A DNA stretch of 8,522 bases from a virus (taxonomy: Duplodnaviria; Heunggongvirae; Uroviricota; Caudoviricetes). The stretch covers positions 1-8,522 of the IMG/VR virus record IMGVR_UViG_2541047751_000016; one strand, given 5' to 3'. A program made the position numbers and the translations under genes. Positions 1-8,316 of the stretch are shown here, piece by piece. The notes under the pieces are model-generated. The model made no database searches. It was not told the DNA's origin and saw only the letters and a list, made by a program, of their open reading frames with translations. Every line of letters starts with the position of its first letter. Position 1 is the stretch's first letter.

Positions 1-693
1 GAATGGCACGCTCTGGAAAAACGAGCACTGGCAGAAGGCTGGACACCATCGCGCTATCTTCTGACGCTATGCAATGAAGAACTCCTGTGGCGCGAGAGTG
101 AAAAACTGCGTCGTTATAAAAAGGAGGCCCGGTTGCCAGTTGCCAAAACGCTAAGCGAATACGACTTCAGTCAGGTGCCGGAACTGAATGGAGCTCAGTT
201 CCGGCAACTCTGTGAAACGACAGACTGGGTTGATGCAGGAGAAAACGTTCTGCTGTTCGGAGCCAGCGGGTTGGGGAAAAGCCATCTGGCGGCAGCGATC
301 GTGGATGGCGTAGTAGGCCAGGGCTACCGGGCCCGGTTCTACAGCGCAGGAGAGTTGTTGCAGGAACTACGTAAAGCCAGAGCGCAGTTGAAACTGAATG
401 AGCTGCTACTGAAACTGGATCGCTACCGGGTGATAGTGGTGGATGATCTTGGCTATGTCAAACGCGACAGCGCCGAAACGGGAGTACTGTTCGAGTTAAT
501 AGCGCATCGCTATGAACGTGGGAGCCTGGTGATAACCAGTAACCATCCGTTCAGCATGTGGGGCAGCATCTTCGTGGATGAGACTATGGCGGTGGCGGCG
601 GCAGACCGGCTGATCCATCACGGATATATGTTCGAACTGAAAGGTGAAAGCTACAGGAAAAAGACAGCGAAGGCAGTAACAAGCGCGACTTGA
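1..693 (+). CDS. istB: IstB-like AAA+ ATP-binding transposition helper of IS21 family (5'-truncated by window edge)
   Basis: Frame 1 is open from base 1 (EWHALEKRALAEGW...). Translation shows LPVAKTLSEYDF, Walker A GASGLGKSHLAAA, Walker B-like VIVVDDLGY, ITSNHPF and C-terminal DRLIHHGYMFELKGESYRKK, matching the IstB/DnaC-like family from memory. Confidence 0.9.
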   Translation, partial: EWHALEKRALAEGWTPSRYLLTLCNEELLWRESEKLRRYKKEARLPVAKTLSEYDFSQVPELNGAQFRQLCETTDWVDAGENVLLFGASGLGKSHLAAAIVDGVVGQGYRARFYSAGELLQELRKARAQLKLNELLLKLDRYRVIVVDDLGYVKRDSAETGVLFELIAHRYERGSLVITSNHPFSMWGSIFVDETMAVAAADRLIHHGYMFELKGESYRKKTAKAVTSAT

Positions 694-776
694 TGTCGCA
701 CTGAAGGGTGCGGCCAGTATAGTTGGCGCGAGTCGGCAAAACTAGTTGACGTCTAATAAGTGGTCATAGCAATACA
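1..776 (+). mobile_element. IS21-family insertion sequence, 3' portion (partial; left part outside window)
   Basis: istB reading frame runs off the left edge and stops at 691-693. Bases 694-776 contain two copies of TAGTTG(G/A)CG (720-728 and 743-751), resembling the multiple terminal repeats of IS21-family ends. Exact right terminus not resolvable; candidate CA termini at 765-766 or 775-776. Confidence 0.7.
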
Positions 777-984: not shown

Positions 985-1063
985 CCCATAATCCCGGCAG
1001 CAATAGCTATCGGGATCCACTTCACATATCCCGCATAAAAAGCACTGAACAAGCAGACACCGA

Positions 1064-1150
1064 AAAAAATAAATATCCTTTGTATTCATTTGTTTATCAT
1101 TATTTCATCAAAAATAAATACCTTGGGTATTTACACAATAAAATACCTAC
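1064..1150. repeat. Three imperfect direct repeats of A-rich/ATA(T)CCT motif in AT-rich intergenic DNA
   Basis: AAAAATAAATATCCTTTG (1064-1081), AAAAATAAATACCTTGGG (1110-1127), AATAAAATACCTAC (1137-1150). Spacing about 46 and 27 bp, no supported coding frame. Confidence 0.4.
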
Positions 1151-1370
1151 AGTATTCTTTAGCCATCAGCAGGACGCTGGAAGCCAAACGGAAAAGATTG
1201 GCAGGCTCTTTAACATTGATGGGATTGTCCCGCCGAAATGCGGGAACCAAAGAGTAGTTGGCTTTGGGATTGGATGAATGAGCAGGCTGATGCTCGACCA
1301 ATGTATAAACAGCGCTCATGGCAAGCAGTAACCAATCTGCGCCTCAAGACAGCGTCACTGGTAGTGTGGG

Positions 1371-1404
1371 CGCTCTAACCAGTAAGCCGGAGTTCAGCAC
1401 CGGC
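1371..1404 (+). promoter_or_regulatory. Candidate nut-like site A: boxA-like CGCTCTAAC followed by a GC hairpin
   Basis: CGCTCTAAC at 1371-1379 (lambda boxA is CGCTCTTA(A/C)); 6-nt spacer; hairpin GCCGG (1386-1390) / CCGGC (1400-1404) with 9-nt loop. Sits 243 nt upstream of the N-like start; a TATAAA hexamer lies at 1304-1309. Confidence 0.3.
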
Positions 1405-1489
1405 CATCCAATCGCCAAAGTCAATTCCATAGGCGTTATGCAGCCGCCACCATATTCAAGAAAGCTGCACAAGAGGTAGGAGGATTTAT

Positions 1490-1505
1490 GTGAATACTTA
1501 CATTC
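1490..1505. promoter_or_regulatory. Palindrome TGAAT-N6-ATTCA (candidate operator) in the presumed pL region
   Basis: TGAATACTTACATTCA at 1490-1505 is a dyad with 5-bp arms. It overlaps a TTACAT (1498-1503) -35-like hexamer. Half-site GTATTCA/TGAATAC recurs at 1082-1088 and in the inverted repeat at 2930-2957. Confidence 0.2.
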
Positions 1506-1561
1506 AGTTGAGAGATTAATTAAATAGAACTGATCGAGCAGAGTCCATGAAGGCTCATAAA

Positions 1562-1591
1562 TGCTCTTCCATCCCCGTCTAATTGGCGGGG
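1562..1591 (+). promoter_or_regulatory. Candidate nut-like site B: boxA-like TGCTCTTCC followed by a 7-bp-stem pentaloop hairpin
   Basis: TGCTCTTCC at 1562-1570; hairpin CCCCGTC (1573-1579) / GGCGGGG (1585-1591) with one G-U wobble and loop TAATT (1580-1584). Sits 56 nt upstream of the N-like start codon. Confidence 0.3.
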
Positions 1592-1646
1592 AAGGAAACC
1601 ACTTTGTAATAAAAAAAATTCCAAAGTTGTTTCATCGGAGGTCAAC

Positions 1647-1946
1647 ATGACAGTAGTCATTACATATCTGGCTGACGATAACGCCAGAAATCGCCGCAGA
1701 GCACGCAGACAGGCTCAACGTGAACAGGCGATGCAAGAGCAGCGACTGGCGCGAAAAATTGCGCTAAAGCTCTCTGGTTGCGTCAGAGCAGACAAAGCAG
1801 CATCACTCGGAAGCCTTCTCTGCAAGAAGGCAGATGAAGTCGAGAGTAAACAGAATCGTATTTACTACCGCAAGCCACGCAGTGAAATGGGCGTGACTTG
1901 TGTTGGTCGCCAGAAAATGAAATTAGGCAGCAAACCACTTATTTGA
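1647..1946 (+). CDS. N: N-like transcription antitermination protein
   Basis: GGAGG at 1637-1641, ATG at 1647. N-terminal arginine-rich motif (DDNARNRRRARRQAQREQ) and C-terminus SKQNRIYYRKPRSEMGVTCVGRQKMKLGSKPLI closely resemble lambda N (ERKNQRTWYSKPGERGITCSGRQKIKGKSIPLI, from memory). First gene of the operon. Confidence 0.8.
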   Translation: MTVVITYLADDNARNRRRARRQAQREQAMQEQRLARKIALKLSGCVRADKAASLGSLLCKKADEVESKQNRIYYRKPRSEMGVTCVGRQKMKLGSKPLI

Positions 1947-1954
1947 GGTGAGAT

Positions 1955-2041
1955 ATGGAAGAAGAATTTGAAGAGTTCGAAGGGCATCCGCAGGATGTGA
2001 TGGAGCAATACCAGGACTATCCGTATGACTACGACTATTGA
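1955..2041 (+). CDS. orf28-like acidic mini-protein (28 aa)
   Basis: GAGG at 1945-1948, ATG at 1955, MEEEFEEFEGHPQDVMEQYQDYPYDYDY. Overlaps the ral start by 17 bp, the same arrangement I recall for lambda orf28/ral. Too short for composition statistics. Confidence 0.4.
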   Translation: MEEEFEEFEGHPQDVMEQYQDYPYDYDY

Positions 2042-2225
2042 TAAGAATCAATGGTGTGGACAATTCAAGCGATGCAATGGATGCAAGCTGCAATCGGAAT
2101 GCATGGTTAAGCCTGAAGAAATGTTTCCTGTAATGGAGGATGGGAAATATGTCGATAAATGGGCAATACGAACTACGGCAATGATTGCCAGAGAACTTGG
2201 TAAACTGAACAACAAGGCTGCCTGA
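2025..2225 (+). CDS. ral: Ral restriction-alleviation protein (anti-restriction against type I R-M)
   Basis: 66-aa product MTTTIDKNQWCGQFKRCNGCKLQSECMVKPEEMFPVMEDGKYVDKWAIRTTAMIARELGKLNNKAA is near-identical to lambda Ral as I remember it. Confidence 0.85.
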   Translation: MTTTIDKNQWCGQFKRCNGCKLQSECMVKPEEMFPVMEDGKYVDKWAIRTTAMIARELGKLNNKAA

Positions 2226-2244
2226 TGGTGGCCTTTATTTTCTT
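2214..2244 (+). terminator. Intrinsic-terminator-like hairpin after ral
   Basis: AAGGCTGCC (2214-2222) / GGTGGCCTT (2227-2235) stem with two wobble pairs, loop TGAT, then TATTTTCTTATTT. Shares GGCCTTTATTTT with the hairpin at 2874-2900. Confidence 0.5.
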
Positions 2245-2261
2245 ATTTGAGAGGAATTAAT

Positions 2262-2885
2262 ATGTCATCAATCCGCTTAACTACGAGAATGAAAGAGGAA
2301 ATCGCTCGTAACGCTTTAATTAAGTCTGGGGTTTTCACTGAACTTGAAGAAGTAACAAAGTTAAAGAACCAGCTTGCACTTGACGCCAGAGTTATTGCGT
2401 TTGGCGGTAAAAAGAAAACTGAGGAAGTGGATCAGTTATCATCCAAGTTGGTAGCTATAAGTGAAGAACTTGAAAAGATGGGATGTTCATTTTACTCATA
2501 CGATGTTCGTTCTACTTCAATTTATCTGACTGTATCTGGCAGAAGGGTTGGATGGCATTCATATGGGAAAGACGGCAACGGCGAAGATATATTGCTCCCT
2601 ACTCCGACCAAAGATAAATGCATGTTTGACGCAGAACACGAAATAACAGAAAGGTTTGATGAAATCTGCGCATTACAACAAAAACTTGAAGCAAAGAAAA
2701 AGGATATCGAATCAAATGTATGGGCTGCTTTAAACTCAGTCACAACAGTTAAGCGACTCATTGAAGTTTGGCCTGAAAGCAAAGAATTGCTACCAAAAGA
2801 AGCAGATAAAGCAAGTACAGCACTTCCTGCTTTACGGGTAGAAGATTTGAATAAGATGATTGGACTTCCTTCCGAGGCCGCATAG
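2262..2885 (+). CDS. Hypothetical protein (207 aa), no family recognised
   Basis: GAGAGGA at 2249-2255, ATG at 2262, long open frame. Product MSSIRLTTRMKEEIARNALIKSG...GWHSYGKDGNGEDILLPTPTKDKCMFDAEHE... Occupies the position of lambda ea10 between ral and cIII. Looks more AT-rich than its neighbours by eye. Confidence 0.75.
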   Translation: MSSIRLTTRMKEEIARNALIKSGVFTELEEVTKLKNQLALDARVIAFGGKKKTEEVDQLSSKLVAISEELEKMGCSFYSYDVRSTSIYLTVSGRRVGWHSYGKDGNGEDILLPTPTKDKCMFDAEHEITERFDEICALQQKLEAKKKDIESNVWAALNSVTTVKRLIEVWPESKELLPKEADKASTALPALRVEDLNKMIGLPSEAA

Positions 2886-3019: not shown

Positions 3020-3046
3020 GCCCTCCAGTGTGAGGGCCTTTTTATA
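3020..3046 (+). terminator. Intrinsic terminator upstream of the cIII-like gene
   Basis: Stem GCCCTC (3020-3025) / GAGGGC (3032-3037), loop CAGTGT, then CTTTTTATAT. Confidence 0.65.
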
Positions 3047-3109
3047 TGCATACCAATAACGCTTCACTCGAGGCGTTTTCGTTATGCAATCAAACAGAAG
3101 GAGCATCCT

Positions 3110-3280
3110 ATGCAACAGTTCGCTATTGCAGGGGCGGCATCGGTTCGCCCTTTCAACCCGATTTTATCGGTACAGCATTCACGAAAAAATATTTTAACCG
3201 GAGCAGACTTTAAACAACCAAGAATGAAAAGTTTGCTCGAAAAGCTTTGGGATATTTTGAAACAACAAGGCCGTCCATGA
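3110..3280 (+). CDS. cIII: cIII-like protein (putative FtsH/HflB protease inhibitor)
   Basis: AAGGAG at 3098-3103, ATG at 3110, 56 aa. N-terminal MQQFAIAG and C-terminal LLEKLWDILKQQGRP resemble lambda CIII (MQYAIAG...WKRLIDILNQPGVP, from memory); position matches lambda gene order. Confidence 0.6.
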   Translation: MQQFAIAGAASVRPFNPILSVQHSRKNILTGADFKQPRMKSLLEKLWDILKQQGRP

Positions 3281-3384: not shown

Positions 3385-3673
3385 TAAGCGTGAAATATCG
3401 CAAATAATCGCAAGTTTTACTGATGAAGATTACGAGCGAATCAACAGTGAAGTTGATCGTCTCTGCAAACGTTGCGACCCAATAAGCGAAATGCTTCGCT
3501 CATATAAACCAGATGAACACACTAAGGACGCTATCGACTGGCTGGAAGATGATGACTGTAACTATCAGGAAAAAGCCGCTGAATGGTTCTGGGATGCAAT
3601 AACCGAAAGAGTTAAGGCTGAATATGCCTTCTCAATATTCAAACGCAGACACATTTTTGGAGAAGCTGCATGA
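3362..3673 (+). CDS. Hypothetical protein (103 aa) immediately upstream of recT
   Basis: AGGAG at 3353-3357; ATG at 3362 (or 3365). Stop overlaps the recT start (ATGA at 3670-3673). Acidic product with WLEDDDCNYQEKAAEWFWDAI. Occupies the gam position by synteny, with no similarity to Gam recognised. Confidence 0.65.
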   Translation: MMILTLNDKREISQIIASFTDEDYERINSEVDRLCKRCDPISEMLRSYKPDEHTKDAIDWLEDDDCNYQEKAAEWFWDAITERVKAEYAFSIFKRRHIFGEAA

Positions 3674-4581
3674 GCAATATCGTTGAATTCGTTAAACAGC
3701 AGGAGCAGTTATTCTGCGGAGCATTGACTGAACAGACGGTGACATGGGCTAAGGAAAGCCAGTTTGCAATTCAGTATTTCCAGAAAAATGATTACCTGGC
3801 TAAAACGGCACTGGCAAATCCAACCAGCGCACAGAACGCCATCATCAATGTTGCGGCGATCGGCATCACCTTAAACCCGGCTAGCAAACTGGCTTATCTG
3901 GTTCCGCGCGACGGCATGGTGTGCCTTGATATCAGTTATATGGGATTGCTCCATATTGCAATGGAGTCTGGTGTTATCTCATGGGGTCAGGCAAAACTTG
4001 TTCATGCTAACGATACCTATGAGTCAAACGGGCTTGATAAAGCACCAACCCATAAATACAACGCCTTCGGTGATCGTGGTGATATCGTTGGCGTTTACTG
4101 CACAGTTAAGACGCCAGCAGGTGATTATCTAACGGAAGAGATGAGTCTGGCTGAAATTGAGGCTGTAAGGAAAACAAGCAAGGCGGCATTCAGCGATAAA
4201 GGACCATGGGTAAATCACTGGAATGAGATGGCGCGAAAGACGGTCGTAAAGCGTGCAAGCAAGTATTGGCCTAAGGCATCACGTCTTGATAGTGCTATTC
4301 ACGTACTAAACGAAGAAGAAGGTGTGTGGACTGAACCAGTTATGCCGCACAAATCAGAGGAAGATATCCGCGAAGATGAACGGAAACGCCAGCAGGAAAT
4401 AATGGATAAAGTACAACTTCTTTGCGATGAAATGGCTCAGGCAGAAAACATGGATGATTTGAAGCGATATTTTGCAGAAGCATATCGCCTGACATCTGGA
4501 ATGAAATTGCAGCAGAACGTACAAGCCATTTACATAGAATGCAAAGCGAAACTGGAGGTTGCCAGTGAGCAAACTGTATGA
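3670..4581 (+). CDS. recT: RecT-family single-strand annealing protein (phage recombinase)
   Basis: GGAG at 3658-3661, ATG at 3670, 303 aa. Motif GPWVNHWNEMARKTVVKRASKYWP matches E. coli RecT GPWVTHWEEMAKKTAIRRLFKYLP (from memory). Carries an extra charged C-terminal tail of about 80 aa. Confidence 0.85.
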   Translation: MSNIVEFVKQQEQLFCGALTEQTVTWAKESQFAIQYFQKNDYLAKTALANPTSAQNAIINVAAIGITLNPASKLAYLVPRDGMVCLDISYMGLLHIAMESGVISWGQAKLVHANDTYESNGLDKAPTHKYNAFGDRGDIVGVYCTVKTPAGDYLTEEMSLAEIEAVRKTSKAAFSDKGPWVNHWNEMARKTVVKRASKYWPKASRLDSAIHVLNEEEGVWTEPVMPHKSEEDIREDERKRQQEIMDKVQLLCDEMAQAENMDDLKRYFAEAYRLTSGMKLQQNVQAIYIECKAKLEVASEQTV

Positions 4582-5047
4582 AATAGCCAATGAATACGCA
4601 AAGCTGATGGATTCAGATTTAGAGCCAGAGATGATTGCTGACACAATAGAAGGCATGGAAGGAGAATTTACCGATAAAATAGAGCAACTTCTTTCCGTCA
4701 TTAAAAATGAATCTGGTTATGCCGAACGCCTCAAGGAAGAGGCAAAGTCACTGAATGAGCGAGCCGCAGTAATTCAAAATAAGATTGAGAGCATCAAATC
4801 ATATATAGCGTCATCGCTTGAAATGGTTGGCAAGAAAAATATTCGAGCAGGCATTCACCAGGTAACAATCCGAAAACCGTCAGAAATTGTAGAAATCATC
4901 GACTCAAGCGCCCTTCCTCCTGAATACGTTGAGTTCGAAACGACAATTAAAGCCGACAAACTGGCAATCAAACACCAACTAAAAGCAGGAATAAATATCC
5001 CCGGCGCTCAACTCAAAGTTGGGAAACCTTCACTTCTTATCAAATAA
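4565..5047 (+). CDS. Siphovirus Gp157-family protein
   Basis: GGAGG at 4554-4558, GTG at 4565 (TTG at 4559 also possible); overlaps the recT 3' end. Product (V/M)SKLYEIANEYAKLMDSDLEPEMIADTIEGMEGEF... resembles Gp157-family proteins that commonly sit beside RecT/Erf genes. Confidence 0.7.
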   Translation: MSKLYEIANEYAKLMDSDLEPEMIADTIEGMEGEFTDKIEQLLSVIKNESGYAERLKEEAKSLNERAAVIQNKIESIKSYIASSLEMVGKKNIRAGIHQVTIRKPSEIVEIIDSSALPPEYVEFETTIKADKLAIKHQLKAGINIPGAQLKVGKPSLLIK

Positions 5048-7614: not shown

Positions 7615-7646
7615 CCTGCAACTTGCCGTCAAAGGTGAATAACAAT

Positions 7647-7672
7647 CCTCGCACTCGCGGGGATTTCTTTTA
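7647..7672 (+). terminator. Terminator-like hairpin (first of a tandem pair) after the DUF551 gene
   Basis: Stem CCTCGC (7647-7652) / GCGGGG (7657-7662) with one G-U wobble, loop ACTC, then ATTTCTTTTA. Confidence 0.45.
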
Positions 7673-7676
7673 TCTG

Positions 7677-7702
7677 AACTCGCTACGGCGAGTTTTGTTT
7701 TA
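7677..7702 (+). terminator. Intrinsic terminator (second of the tandem pair)
   Basis: Stem AACTCGC (7677-7683) / GCGAGTT (7688-7694), loop TACG, then TTGTTTTA. Confidence 0.65.
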
Positions 7703-8253: not shown

Positions 8254-8290
8254 CGCCTCACACTCGATGAGGCCTGTACATATCTGATAG

Positions 8291-8316
8291 AGCCGCTATA
8301 TGGCGGTTTCTTTTTG
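8291..8316 (+). terminator. Terminator-like hairpin before the AlpA/Xis-like gene
   Basis: Stem AGCCGC (8291-8296) / GCGGTT (8303-8308) with one G-U wobble, loop TATATG, then TCTTTTTG. A second hairpin GCCTCA-N7-TGAGGC lies at 8255-8273. Confidence 0.4.

What the first reader, a model, noticed from the sequence alone, without database searches (positions are those of the whole stretch)
1647..1946. N-like antiterminator with a lambda-like C-terminus but a divergent RNA-binding motif
The C-terminal third is very close to lambda N, but the N-terminal arginine-rich motif (NARNRRRARRQAQREQAM) appears to lack the tryptophan that in lambda N stacks on the boxB loop. This points to a different boxB specificity, consistent with the non-GNRA loops of the candidate hairpins upstream.
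Basis: partly seen in the sequence, partly recalled or inferred. Interest (0 to 1): 0.4.

Follow-up and report, generated by a model that had tools for sequence, protein, structure and literature searches.

The report
Known phage N antiterminator, HK620 type

Summary
Window 1647-1946 (+) encodes a 99-aa N antiterminator. It is 97% identical to the annotated N of phage CUS-3. Residues 1-64 match HK620 N, and residues 34-99 are about 91% identical to phage 21 N. The C-terminal 35 residues are 54% identical to lambda N.

The arginine-rich motif (residues 11-29) has no aromatic residue, and lambda W18 aligns with Ala28. P22 and phage 21 N lack that Trp too.

The cognate nut site is not the hairpin next to the gene. 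It lies at 1205-1245: boxA GCTCTTTAACA, a 12-nt spacer, then boxB UCCCGC-CGAAAU-GCGGGA. This stretch is identical to the "putative nutL" annotated in HK620.

- In 79 of 80 loci chosen by the motif, this boxB sits at both nutL and nutR.
- In 82 of 82 loci chosen by the boxB, the motif follows.
- In diverged Pantoea and Erwinia relatives the stem covaries. The loop varies only as C/A-G-N-R-A-U (GAAA, GAGA, GCAA, GGAA).

So a distinct specificity class is supported, but the "non-GNRA" reading is not. The UAAUU hairpin at 1567-1597 belongs to an optional, single-copy leader module that HK620 lacks. Verdict: already known and ordinary. The binding mode has not been studied structurally, as far as I could find.

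The parts
1094..1157 (+). OL3, OL2 and OL1 operators of the HK620 immunity type (1094-1110, 1116-1132, 1141-1157), placed by transfer from the HK620 annotation
   Evidence: Window 1060-1262 differs from HK620 (L006 2708-2910) at 1 position beyond the first three bases. HK620 record annotates OL3/OL2/OL1 at L006 2742-2758, 2764-2780 and 2789-2805; the offset is 1648.
1130..1158 (+). pL early-left promoter (TTTACA, 17-nt spacer, TATTCT)
   Evidence: Found by the promoter scan. It coincides with the pL annotated in HK620 at L006 2778-2813.
1205..1215 (+). nutL boxA (GCTCTTTAACA, rrn-like CUUUA type)
   Evidence: Read directly from the sequence. Unique match in the window, with 0 expected in 200 shuffles. 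Lies within the HK620 'nutL; putative' feature. The boxA consensus is quoted in PMC2724277.
1228..1245 (+). nutL boxB: 6-bp stem UCCCGC/GCGGGA with loop CGAAAU (GAAA tetraloop sequence flanked by C and U)
   Evidence: RNAfold gives -10.5 kcal/mol, z = -2.7. Identical hairpin at nutL and nutR of HK620, HK630, HK140, N7 and CUS-3. Strict two-way co-occurrence with the motif. Stem covariation: 4 of 7 pairs change on both sides.
1256..1427 (+). Long closing stem of the N leader (-72 kcal/mol). Probable counterpart of the RNase III stem in the lambda N leader (inference).
   Evidence: Fold z = -5.3. HK620 and CUS-3 carry a different, shorter insert that is also self-complementary between the same conserved flanks, GGCTTTGGGG...CGCCAAAGTC.
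1424..1636 (+). Optional N-leader module. It contains AGGAGG (1478-1483) followed by ATG-TGA (1488-1493), a boxA-like TGCTCTT, and a strong hairpin at 1567-1597 (loop UAAUU). This is not the boxB.
   Evidence: Absent from the HK620 leader. Present in CUS-3 and E. coli SJC33, and 72% identical in HK140. Hairpin -21 kcal/mol, z = -5.5. Single copy in 27 of 27 loci, always between boxB and N. A second version has a different stem and a variable loop.
1637..1641 (+). Shine-Dalgarno sequence GGAGG of N
   Evidence: Read from the sequence. Invariant in the window, CUS-3 and HK140 alignment.
1647..1946 (+). N antiterminator gene (99 aa plus stop)
1677..1733 (+). Arginine-rich RNA-binding motif, residues 11-29 (DNARNRRRARRQAQREQAM), HK620 type, no Trp
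   Evidence: Alignment with lambda, P22 and phage 21 N. Identical in HK620, HK140, N7, CUS-3 and mEp213 N2 and in 75 of 80 IMG/VR loci.
1746..1943 (+). Phage-21-like central and C-terminal part (residues 34-99). By homology it holds the NusA- and RNA-polymerase-binding regions. The last 35 aa are lambda-like.
   Evidence: The megablast match to phage 21 starts at window 1741, 96% DNA identity. Protein comparisons.
2214..2235 (+). First terminator-like hairpin plus T-run downstream of N, at the end of ral. Candidate target of antitermination. Further sites at 2874-2893, 3020-3037, 3058-3077, 7644-7665, 7676-7695 and 8290-8309.
   Evidence: Terminator scan: 15 sites found against 7.7 expected. 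Phage 21 annotates a terminator some 135 nt downstream of ral.

Best explanation
Window 1647-1946 is the N gene of a lambdoid prophage with HK620-type immunity. It is the first gene of the pL operon. Transcription from pL (1130-1158) produces the nutL RNA: boxA at 1205-1215 and boxB at 1228-1245.

The N-terminal arginine-rich motif of N (residues 11-29) binds the boxB hairpin. That hairpin has a G+C-rich stem capped by the hexaloop C-GAAA-U, most likely a true GNRA tetraloop closed by a C.U pair. This parallels the phage 21 boxB hexaloop CUAACC, where a tetraloop-like fold is closed by a C.C pair.

The phage-21-like middle and the lambda/21-type C-terminus then engage NusA and RNA polymerase, while NusB and NusE bind boxA. 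Together they make polymerase read through the terminators downstream (first candidate at 2214-2235).

The protein is a mosaic:
- a P22-like MTVVITY start,
- an HK620-class RNA-binding motif,
- a phage 21-class body.

Shown here: identity of the gene, location and structure of the nut site, strict pairing of motif type with boxB type, and GNRA-constrained loop variation. Inferred: physical binding, the tetraloop fold, and antitermination itself.
For: Gene identity:
- 97% identical to annotated CUS-3 N; PHROG 271 E=8e-36; same position after pL and nutL and before ral.

The nut site:
- Window 1060-1262 differs from HK620's OL/pL/'nutL; putative' region at 1 position beyond the first three bases.
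- It is the only match in the window, with 0 expected by chance.
- The same boxB is found at both nutL and nutR in HK620, HK630, HK140, N7 and CUS-3.

Pairing of boxB and motif:
- Loci selected by the boxB pattern: all 82 nutL matches with at least 700 nt downstream are followed by the motif with at most 2 substitutions.
- Loci selected by the motif: 79 of 80 carry the boxB at nutL and on the opposite strand at nutR.

Diverged relatives (Pantoea, Erwinia, metagenomes):
- They keep the motif core DN(A/S)RNRR(R/K)xRR.
- Loops are C-GAAA-U, C-GAGA-U, C-GCAA-U and A-GGAA-U. One phage (L102) has GAGA at nutL and GCAA at nutR.
- The stem covaries: 4 of 7 pairs change on both sides, and 90.8% of cells are paired against 37-63% when the partner is slid.

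Contrasts:
- Phage 21 shares boxA, its flanks and N residues 34-99, but has its own motif and a CUAACC loop.
- Pantoea locus L132 has a 21-like motif and a 21-like CUAAUC loop at nutR.

Precedent: a hexaloop with a tetraloop-like fold closed by a C.C pair is described for phage 21 boxB (PDB 1NYB) in PMC12550061.
Against: - No binding or antitermination data exist for this motif and boxB pair in anything I could search.
- nutR is outside the window. An IS21-family element interrupts the region between the repressor side and pL, so regulation of this particular copy is uncertain.
- Most IMG/VR loci are near-identical E. coli prophages and so are not independent. The independent support comes from roughly ten diverged lineages.
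- The GNRA-tetraloop-plus-C.U fold is inferred from sequence variation and analogy, not from a structure.
- mEp213 and L201 carry this N without its boxB. The gene can therefore persist uncoupled from its site.
Confidence: 0.88

Rival explanations
1. One reading: this N recognises a non-GNRA boxB, namely the hairpin(s) immediately upstream of the gene (UAAUU loop, 1567-1597, preceded by a boxA-like TGCTCTT).
For: The hairpin is strong (-21 kcal/mol, z = -5.5). It abuts a boxA-like TGCTCTT that is invariant between two versions of the module that are 72% identical. In every locus found it precedes this type of N.
Against: HK620 encodes the identical motif and its leader lacks the module. In N7, similarity to the window begins only at 1632, just before the ATG. 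Only 14 of 80 motif-selected loci carry this hairpin within 300 nt of the ATG. It is always single-copy and never found at nutR. The boxA-like sequence lies 0-2 nt from the stem and partly inside it, unlike the 12-15 nt spacers of real nut sites. Between versions the stem is replaced by a different complementary sequence and the loop varies (UAAUU, AGUUC, AAUUC, AUGUC); two versions have no hairpin at all. That is the opposite of the boxB pattern, where the loop is fixed and the stem varies.
Confidence: 0.03
2. The specificity is not really different. Because the boxB loop still presents a GNRA fold and the N-terminal half of the motif resembles lambda's (A3, R6-R8, R10-R11), this N and lambda N cross-react on each other's boxB.
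For: Lambda boxB is a GNRA-like pentaloop (Legault 1998, cited in PMC2724277; PMC12550061). Seven of 22 motif positions are identical to lambda. mEp213 carries a lambda-type N with a lambda nutL and also an HK620-type N that has no boxB of its own.
Against: Motif type and boxB type co-occur strictly in both directions. The stem, closing pair and loop length all differ from lambda (6-bp stem UCCCGC closed by C-G with a hexaloop, against GCCCU closed by U-A with a pentaloop). W18, and K14 and Q15, which from my own knowledge of the lambda literature contact the loop, are replaced here.
Confidence: 0.12
3. In this particular prophage the gene is a silent or decaying remnant rather than a working regulator, because an IS element has broken the immunity region.
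For: An IstB-like ORF lies at 133-693. Phage homology resumes at 759/760 inside an hkaS-like gene that is intact in E. coli SJC33. cI, cro and nutR are not in the window. Other copies of this N exist without nut sites (L201, mEp213).
Against: The N ORF is full-length and 97% identical to the N of the sequenced phage CUS-3. pL, the operators, boxA, boxB and the Shine-Dalgarno sequence are all intact and match HK620 or CUS-3. The IS sits upstream of OL3 and does not touch the pL-nutL-N unit. Downstream early genes (ral, RecT and others) are intact ORFs.
Confidence: 0.15
4. It is a Nun-like exclusion or termination factor rather than an antiterminator.
For: HK022 Nun is also an arginine-rich-motif protein encoded at the N position (PMC4124055 abstract). 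tblastn hits include loci annotated with both Nun and N.
Against: Residues 34-99 are about 91% identical to phage 21 N, which is annotated as, and (my own knowledge) is, a working antiterminator. The C-terminus aligns with the C-terminus of lambda N. The phage carries its own cognate nut sites at pL and pR, which is the arrangement of an N system.
Confidence: 0.02

Closest known systems
Phage HK620 N with its annotated putative nutL and nutR (NC_002730; Clark et al. 2001)
   Same: Residues 1-63 are almost identical, including the whole RNA-binding motif. The OL/pL/boxA/boxB DNA differs at 1 position beyond the first three aligned bases. The same boxB is present at nutR.
   Different: HK620 N ends with a P22-type C-terminus (...CLPNVAIYAAGYRKSKQLTAR), whereas the window protein has the phage 21/lambda type. 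HK620's leader is short, about 110 nt from boxB to the ATG, and lacks both the 1424-1636 module and the long 1256-1427 insert.
Phage CUS-3 N (ABQ88425, 'putative transcription antitermination protein')
   Same: 97% identical over all 99 residues. Same leader module and hairpin. Same boxB at nutL and nutR.
   Different: A few substitutions (L58R, D63E). The segment between boxB and the module is a different, shorter self-complementary insert. The immunity region (cI) is of another type.
Phage 21 N and its boxB (NMR complex 1NYB)
   Same: Residues 34-99 are about 91% identical. boxA and its flanks are homologous. boxB is also a hexaloop on a 6-7 bp stem; in phage 21 a tetraloop-like fold is closed by a pyrimidine-pyrimidine pair. 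There is no Trp at the lambda W18 column.
   Different: The motif is GTAKSRYKARRAELIAERR against DNARNRRRARRQAQREQAM. The loop is C-UAAC-C against C-GAAA-U. The stems are unrelated.
Lambda N and its boxB (W18 stacking on a GNRA-like pentaloop)
   Same: Same family, gene position and nut architecture. The C-terminal 35 aa are 54% identical. The motif core AxxRRRxRR is shared. The loop contains GAAA.
   Different: Ala replaces W18 and no aromatic residue is nearby. The loop is a hexaloop (C-GAAA-U) rather than a pentaloop (GAAAA or GAAGA) closed by U-A, so there is no extra base to extrude. The middle region is unrelated.
P22 N (gene 24) and its boxB (GACAA pentaloop, 1A4T)
   Same: MTV(V)ITY N-terminus and the NA(K/R)xRR start of the motif. 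P22 nutR also has its loop flanked by an unpaired C...C.
   Different: The loop is GACAA with a looped-out C. The C-terminal half of the motif is hydrophobic (KLAIER). The window protein lacks the P22-type C-terminus.

Membership tests
Lambdoid N antiterminator family (PHROG 271 / Pfam PF25694 N_peptide) | Significant sequence match to family models or members | tested here: met
   PHROG 271 E=8e-36. 97% identical to CUS-3 N. 67/99 identical to phage 21 N. Lambda N C-terminus E=3e-10. Caveat: Pfam PF25694 scores 17.6 bits, below its 27.9 cut-off, and NCBIfam has no match.
Lambdoid N antiterminator family (PHROG 271 / Pfam PF25694 N_peptide) | N-terminal arginine-rich motif of the A-x-x-R-(R/Y)-x-x-R-R type | tested here: met
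   Residues 13-21, ARNRRRARR, align column for column with lambda AQTRRRERR, P22 AKTRRHERR and phage 21 AKSRYKARR.
Lambdoid N antiterminator family (PHROG 271 / Pfam PF25694 N_peptide) | First gene of the pL operon, downstream of a boxA-boxB nut site | tested here: met
   pL 1130-1158, boxA 1205-1215, boxB 1228-1245, N 1647, then ral 2025-2225.
Lambdoid N antiterminator family (PHROG 271 / Pfam PF25694 N_peptide) | A second, matching nut site (nutR) in the pR operon | tested here: inconclusive
   The pR side is outside the window, beyond the IS. In relatives with the same motif it is present in 79 of 80 loci and in HK620, HK630, HK140, N7 and CUS-3.
Lambdoid N antiterminator family (PHROG 271 / Pfam PF25694 N_peptide) | C-terminal RNA-polymerase-binding region | tested here: met
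   Met by sequence only. Residues 65-99 are 54% identical to lambda N 74-107 and match chain 6GOV_N of the solved lambda N complex.
Lambdoid N antiterminator family (PHROG 271 / Pfam PF25694 N_peptide) | Nus-factor-dependent read-through of terminators | not testable with these tools
   Needs a reporter or in vitro transcription assay. Terminator-like sites do exist downstream.
Lambda specificity class | Trp18 (aromatic cap) in the motif and a GAAAA/GAAGA pentaloop closed by U-A | tested here: not met
   Ala28 lies at the W18 column with no aromatic nearby. No lambda-type boxB follows the boxA; the loop is the hexaloop CGAAAU.
Phage 21 specificity class | Motif TAKSRYKARRAELIAERR with a CUAACC hexaloop | tested here: not met
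   Motif and loop both differ, although the rest of N and the boxA flanks are 21-like.
P22 specificity class | Motif NAKTRRHERRRKLAIER with a GACAA pentaloop | tested here: not met
HK620/CUS-3 specificity class (defined here by comparison) | Motif DN(A/S)RNRR(R/K)xRR together with a boxB loop (C/A)-GNRA-U after a CUUUA-type boxA | tested here: met
   Motif identical to HK620. boxA and boxB identical to HK620's annotated nutL. Class-wide pairing shown.

The most novel reading that the evidence does not exclude
The HK620-class motif may recognise a bona fide GNRA tetraloop closed by a conserved C.U pair, with no aromatic cap and no extruded base. That would be a fourth structural solution for N peptide-boxB recognition, so far uncharacterised, and a sister of phage 21's C.C-closed UAAC hexaloop. 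If it does not cross-react with lambda, P22 and phage 21, it would also give a new small peptide-RNA tethering pair.
Probability: 0.45. Interest if true: 0.35.

Novelty: already known. Interest (0 to 1): 0.18.

Why it matters
It matters little for discovery. The gene, its motif and its nut sites are already in GenBank: HK620 (2001, nut sites marked 'putative') and CUS-3.

There are two modest practical points:
- Automated annotation misses this N. RefSeq calls it 'hypothetical protein' and the Pfam N_peptide model scores below its cut-off, so prophage early-region annotation in E. coli is systematically incomplete.
- The comparative data give a clear, testable definition of this specificity class: motif core DN(A/S)RNRR(R/K)xRR paired with a C-GNRA-U hexaloop. 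This could extend the set of structurally distinct N-boxB pairs and of orthogonal RNA tethers.

Tried and rejected
- **Rfam.** An E-value search of 1000-2300 found nothing. nut sites and the leader hairpin are not in any curated RNA family.
- **NCBIfam.** No hit for this N, HK620 N or phage 21 N.
- **Literature.** I found no paper that describes the HK620/CUS-3 boxB or binding by its motif. The HK620 genome paper (Clark 2001) and the phage 21 NMR paper (Cilley and Williamson 2003) are not held. 'Not characterised' therefore rests on an incomplete library.
- **Genome contigs.** The scan with the N alignment returned only 5 loci. They were useful but few. The protein search with the N-terminal profile returned 23 proteins.
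- **The 1567-1597 hairpin as boxB or a second nut site.** Rejected (see rival explanations).
- **The same hairpin as an intrinsic terminator on either strand.** No T-run follows it on either strand.
- **Minus-strand ORFs overlapping the finding** (1783-1938, 1865-2008, 1520-1660). These are mechanical ORFs with no support.
- **ORF 1318-1479 in the leader.** It has no Shine-Dalgarno sequence, is not annotated in the closest genome, and lies inside the long leader stem.
- One fold call failed on a mistyped reference.

Full report
**The observation.** Window 1647-1946 (+) is an intact 99-aa ORF. A GGAGG sequence lies 5 nt upstream of the ATG. The ORF is clearly a gene:
- PHROG 271 'anti-termination protein N-like' scores E=8e-36.
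- megablast and tblastn find it in many lambdoid and P22-like coliphages.
- It is 97% identical over its full length to the annotated N of phage CUS-3 and 98% to an unannotated ORF of phage HZ41.

The quoted motif is residues 12-29. In a MAFFT alignment with lambda, P22, phage 21, HK620, HK140, N7 and CUS-3 N, lambda W18 falls opposite Ala28, with no aromatic residue nearby. The 'lambda-like C-terminus' is real but moderate: 19/35 identical, E=3e-10. The only solved relative by sequence is lambda N chain 6GOV_N, E=0.0016. Phage 21 N is much closer, at 67/99 overall and about 91% from residue 34 onward. The DNA match to phage 21 begins at window 1741.

The protein is therefore a mosaic: a P22-like MTVVITY start, an HK620-type RNA-binding motif, and a phage 21-type body with a lambda/21-type tail. 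HK620 and HK140 N have the same first 63 residues but a P22-type tail. Lack of Trp is not special. P22 and phage 21 N both have Arg in that column.

**Where the nut site is.** The region 1060-1262 differs from HK620 at 1 position beyond the first three aligned bases. The HK620 record annotates OL1-3, pL and 'nutL; putative' in exactly this stretch. Transferred to the window, the features are:
- pL at 1130-1158, also found by the promoter scan;
- boxA GCTCTTTAACA at 1205-1215;
- boxB UCCCGC-CGAAAU-GCGGGA at 1228-1245.

The combined pattern occurs once in the window and never in 200 shuffles. It folds as a 6-bp stem with a 6-nt loop (-10.5 kcal/mol). The same boxB follows a boxA between cro and cII (nutR) in HK620, HK630, HK140, N7 and CUS-3. 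All of these encode the identical motif.

**Pairing of motif and boxB.** I tested the link in both directions in IMG/VR.
- A scan for boxA + CCCGC-NNNNNN-GCGGG with the loop left free gave 119 loci. The loop was CGAAAT in 198 of 200 matches. All 82 nutL-type matches with at least 700 nt downstream were followed by the motif with at most 2 substitutions.
- Conversely, of 80 loci retrieved with N residues 1-64, 79 had this boxB both upstream of N and on the opposite strand further upstream.
- The exception, L201, is a rearranged locus in which N abuts tail genes.

These loci are mostly near-identical E. coli prophages, so they are not independent samples.

**Diverged relatives.** Independent evidence comes from the two loop variants and from relatives in Pantoea, Erwinia and metagenomes.
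- Their motifs keep the core DN(A/S)RNRR(R/K)xRR but vary after it. The W18-equivalent position is A, E, N, V, K or I.
- Their boxB loops are C-GAAA-U (most), C-GAGA-U (L011 nutL and L102 nutL), C-GCAA-U (L102 nutR and L134 nutR) and A-GGAA-U (L134 nutL).
- The G and final A of the tetraloop and the 3' U never change. The middle positions vary only as N and R.
- One phage (L102) uses GAGA at nutL and GCAA at nutR.
- The stem sequence changes with compensation. Four of 7 pairs change on both sides, and 90.8% of cells are paired against 37-63% when the partner is slid.
- As contrasts, phage 21 shares boxA, its flanks and the N body but has its own motif and a CUAACC loop. Pantoea locus L132 has a 21-like motif (AKSRYRARRA) and a 21-like CUAAUC loop at nutR.

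A distinct specificity class is well supported. 'Non-GNRA' is not: the loop is the most GNRA-like of all known boxB types.

The closest structural precedent is phage 21 boxB. Its CUAACC hexaloop forms a tetraloop-like fold flanked by a C.C pair (PMC12550061). By analogy, C-GNRA-U would be a true GNRA tetraloop closed by C.U. In L134 nutL the closing pair would be A-U. This fold is inferred, not shown. It would explain why no base needs to be extruded. The lambda W18 stacking role is from my own knowledge of Legault et al. 1998, cited in PMC2724277.

**The hairpin next to the gene.** The strong hairpin at 1567-1597 (loop UAAUU, -21 kcal/mol) lies in a roughly 210-nt module at 1424-1636.
- HK620's leader lacks the module altogether.
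- The module is present in CUS-3 and E. coli SJC33, and at 72% identity in HK140.
- The exact hairpin occurs once per locus in 27 of 27 cases. It always lies between the CGAAAU boxB and N, about 54 nt before the ATG, and never at nutR.
- Only 14 of 80 motif-selected loci have it.
- A second version of the module has a different complementary stem and variable loops (AGUUC, AAUUC, AUGUC). Two versions have no hairpin.

A fixed structure with a free loop is the reverse of a boxB signature. It is therefore a conserved optional leader structure of unknown role, not the N target.

Between nutL and this module, 1256-1427 forms a long closing stem (-72 kcal/mol, z = -5.3). HK620 and CUS-3 carry a different self-complementary insert between the same flanks. 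This is reminiscent of the RNase III stem in the lambda N leader, but that comparison is an inference from my own knowledge.

**Mechanism.**
1. After derepression, polymerase starts at pL and transcribes boxA and boxB.
2. NusB and NusE bind boxA. The boxA consensus is given in PMC2724277.
3. N is translated from 1647 and binds boxB through residues 11-29.
4. The phage-21-like middle and the lambda/21-type tail contact NusA and polymerase.
5. The modified polymerase reads through terminator-like sites at 2214-2235 (end of ral), 2874-2893, 3020-3037, 3058-3077 and further on. This allows expression of the recombination genes, RecT (3670-4581) and Gp157-family (4559-5047), among others.

The identity of the parts and their co-evolution are shown here. 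Binding and antitermination are inferred from homology.

**Context and caveats.**
- The left end of the window holds an IstB-like ORF (133-693).
- Homology to intact prophages starts at 759/760, inside an hkaS-like gene that lies between cI and OL3 in E. coli SJC33.
- The repressor, cro and nutR are therefore not visible. This copy may or may not be normally regulated.
- I found no experimental work on this motif and boxB pair, but the key older papers are not in the library.

**Verdict.** This is an already known, correctly recognisable N gene of the HK620/CUS-3 specificity type. The inference of a separate boxB specificity is right. The proposed target hairpins and the 'non-GNRA' argument are wrong. 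Interest is low. The residual novelty is the structurally unstudied C-GNRA-U recognition mode and the optional leader module.

Noticed in passing
window 133-758: There is an IS21-family helper ATPase (IstB-like) ORF at 133-693. Homology to intact prophages resumes at 759/760 inside an hkaS-like gene; ORF 760-984 is its C-terminal 74 aa. The IS therefore separates the repressor side from OL/pL. cI, cro and nutR are not in the window.
   Followed up: partly
window 1424-1636 (hairpin 1567-1597; AGGAGG 1478-1483; ATG-TGA 1488-1493): This is an optional module in the N leader. Two versions that are 72% identical (window/CUS-3 and HK140) conserve a strong Shine-Dalgarno sequence followed by a start-stop ATGTGA, a boxA-like TGCTCTT, and a hairpin whose stem is replaced with compensation while its loop varies. 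The function is unknown. It may control N translation or leader stability.
   Followed up: partly
window 1256-1427: A long closing stem in the leader (-72 kcal/mol, z = -5.3). HK620 and CUS-3 have a different, shorter self-complementary insert between the same flanks. It looks like the counterpart of the RNase III stem in the lambda N leader.
   Followed up: partly
L008 (phage mEp213) 2016-2348 and 3501-3773; remnant at about 3124-3143: mEp213 carries two N genes in one pL operon. One is a lambda-motif N with a lambda nutL. The second is an HK620-type N preceded only by a broken boxB (GCCCTCCGAAATGCGGGAAC), which looks like a lambda 5' arm fused to the HK620 loop and 3' arm.
   Followed up: partly
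L231 4389-4688 (E. coli SJC33, WP_000219338.1) and window 1647-1946: RefSeq/PGAP names this N 'hypothetical protein'. Pfam N_peptide scores 17.6 bits against a 27.9 cut-off, and NCBIfam has no model that hits it or phage 21 N. This N type is therefore routinely left unannotated.
   Followed up: yes
window 1955-2041: A 28-codon, very acidic ORF (MEEEFEEFEGHPQDVMEQYQDYPYDYDY) with its own GAGG lies between N and ral and overlaps the ral start (2025). Some RefSeq genomes list a second 'hypothetical protein' under this stretch, though I did not check whether it is this ORF.
   Followed up: no
L132 (Pantoea sp. FN060301) nutL about 4843-4890 and nutR about 3704 (- strand): This phage has a phage-21-like motif (AKSRYRARRA). 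Its nutR loop is 21-like (CUAAUC), but its nutL hairpin has a different loop (CUGACA), so the two nut sites do not match.
   Followed up: no
Pantoea and Erwinia nutR sites (L133, L134, L232, L233, L234, L236): The nutR boxB stems of this group all carry an internal mismatch (C.A or C.C) at the third position below the loop. Their nutL stems are fully paired.
   Followed up: no
L201 3220-4300: This is the only motif-selected locus without the boxB. The N gene directly abuts a large opposite-strand ORF next to a tail-fibre-like, coiled-coil ORF. It is either a rearranged prophage or a chimeric contig.
   Followed up: partly
window 2247-2885: The 212-aa ORF after ral is annotated in matching E. 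coli genomes as 'Nmad5 family putative nucleotide modification protein'. It occupies an early-left moron position.
   Followed up: no
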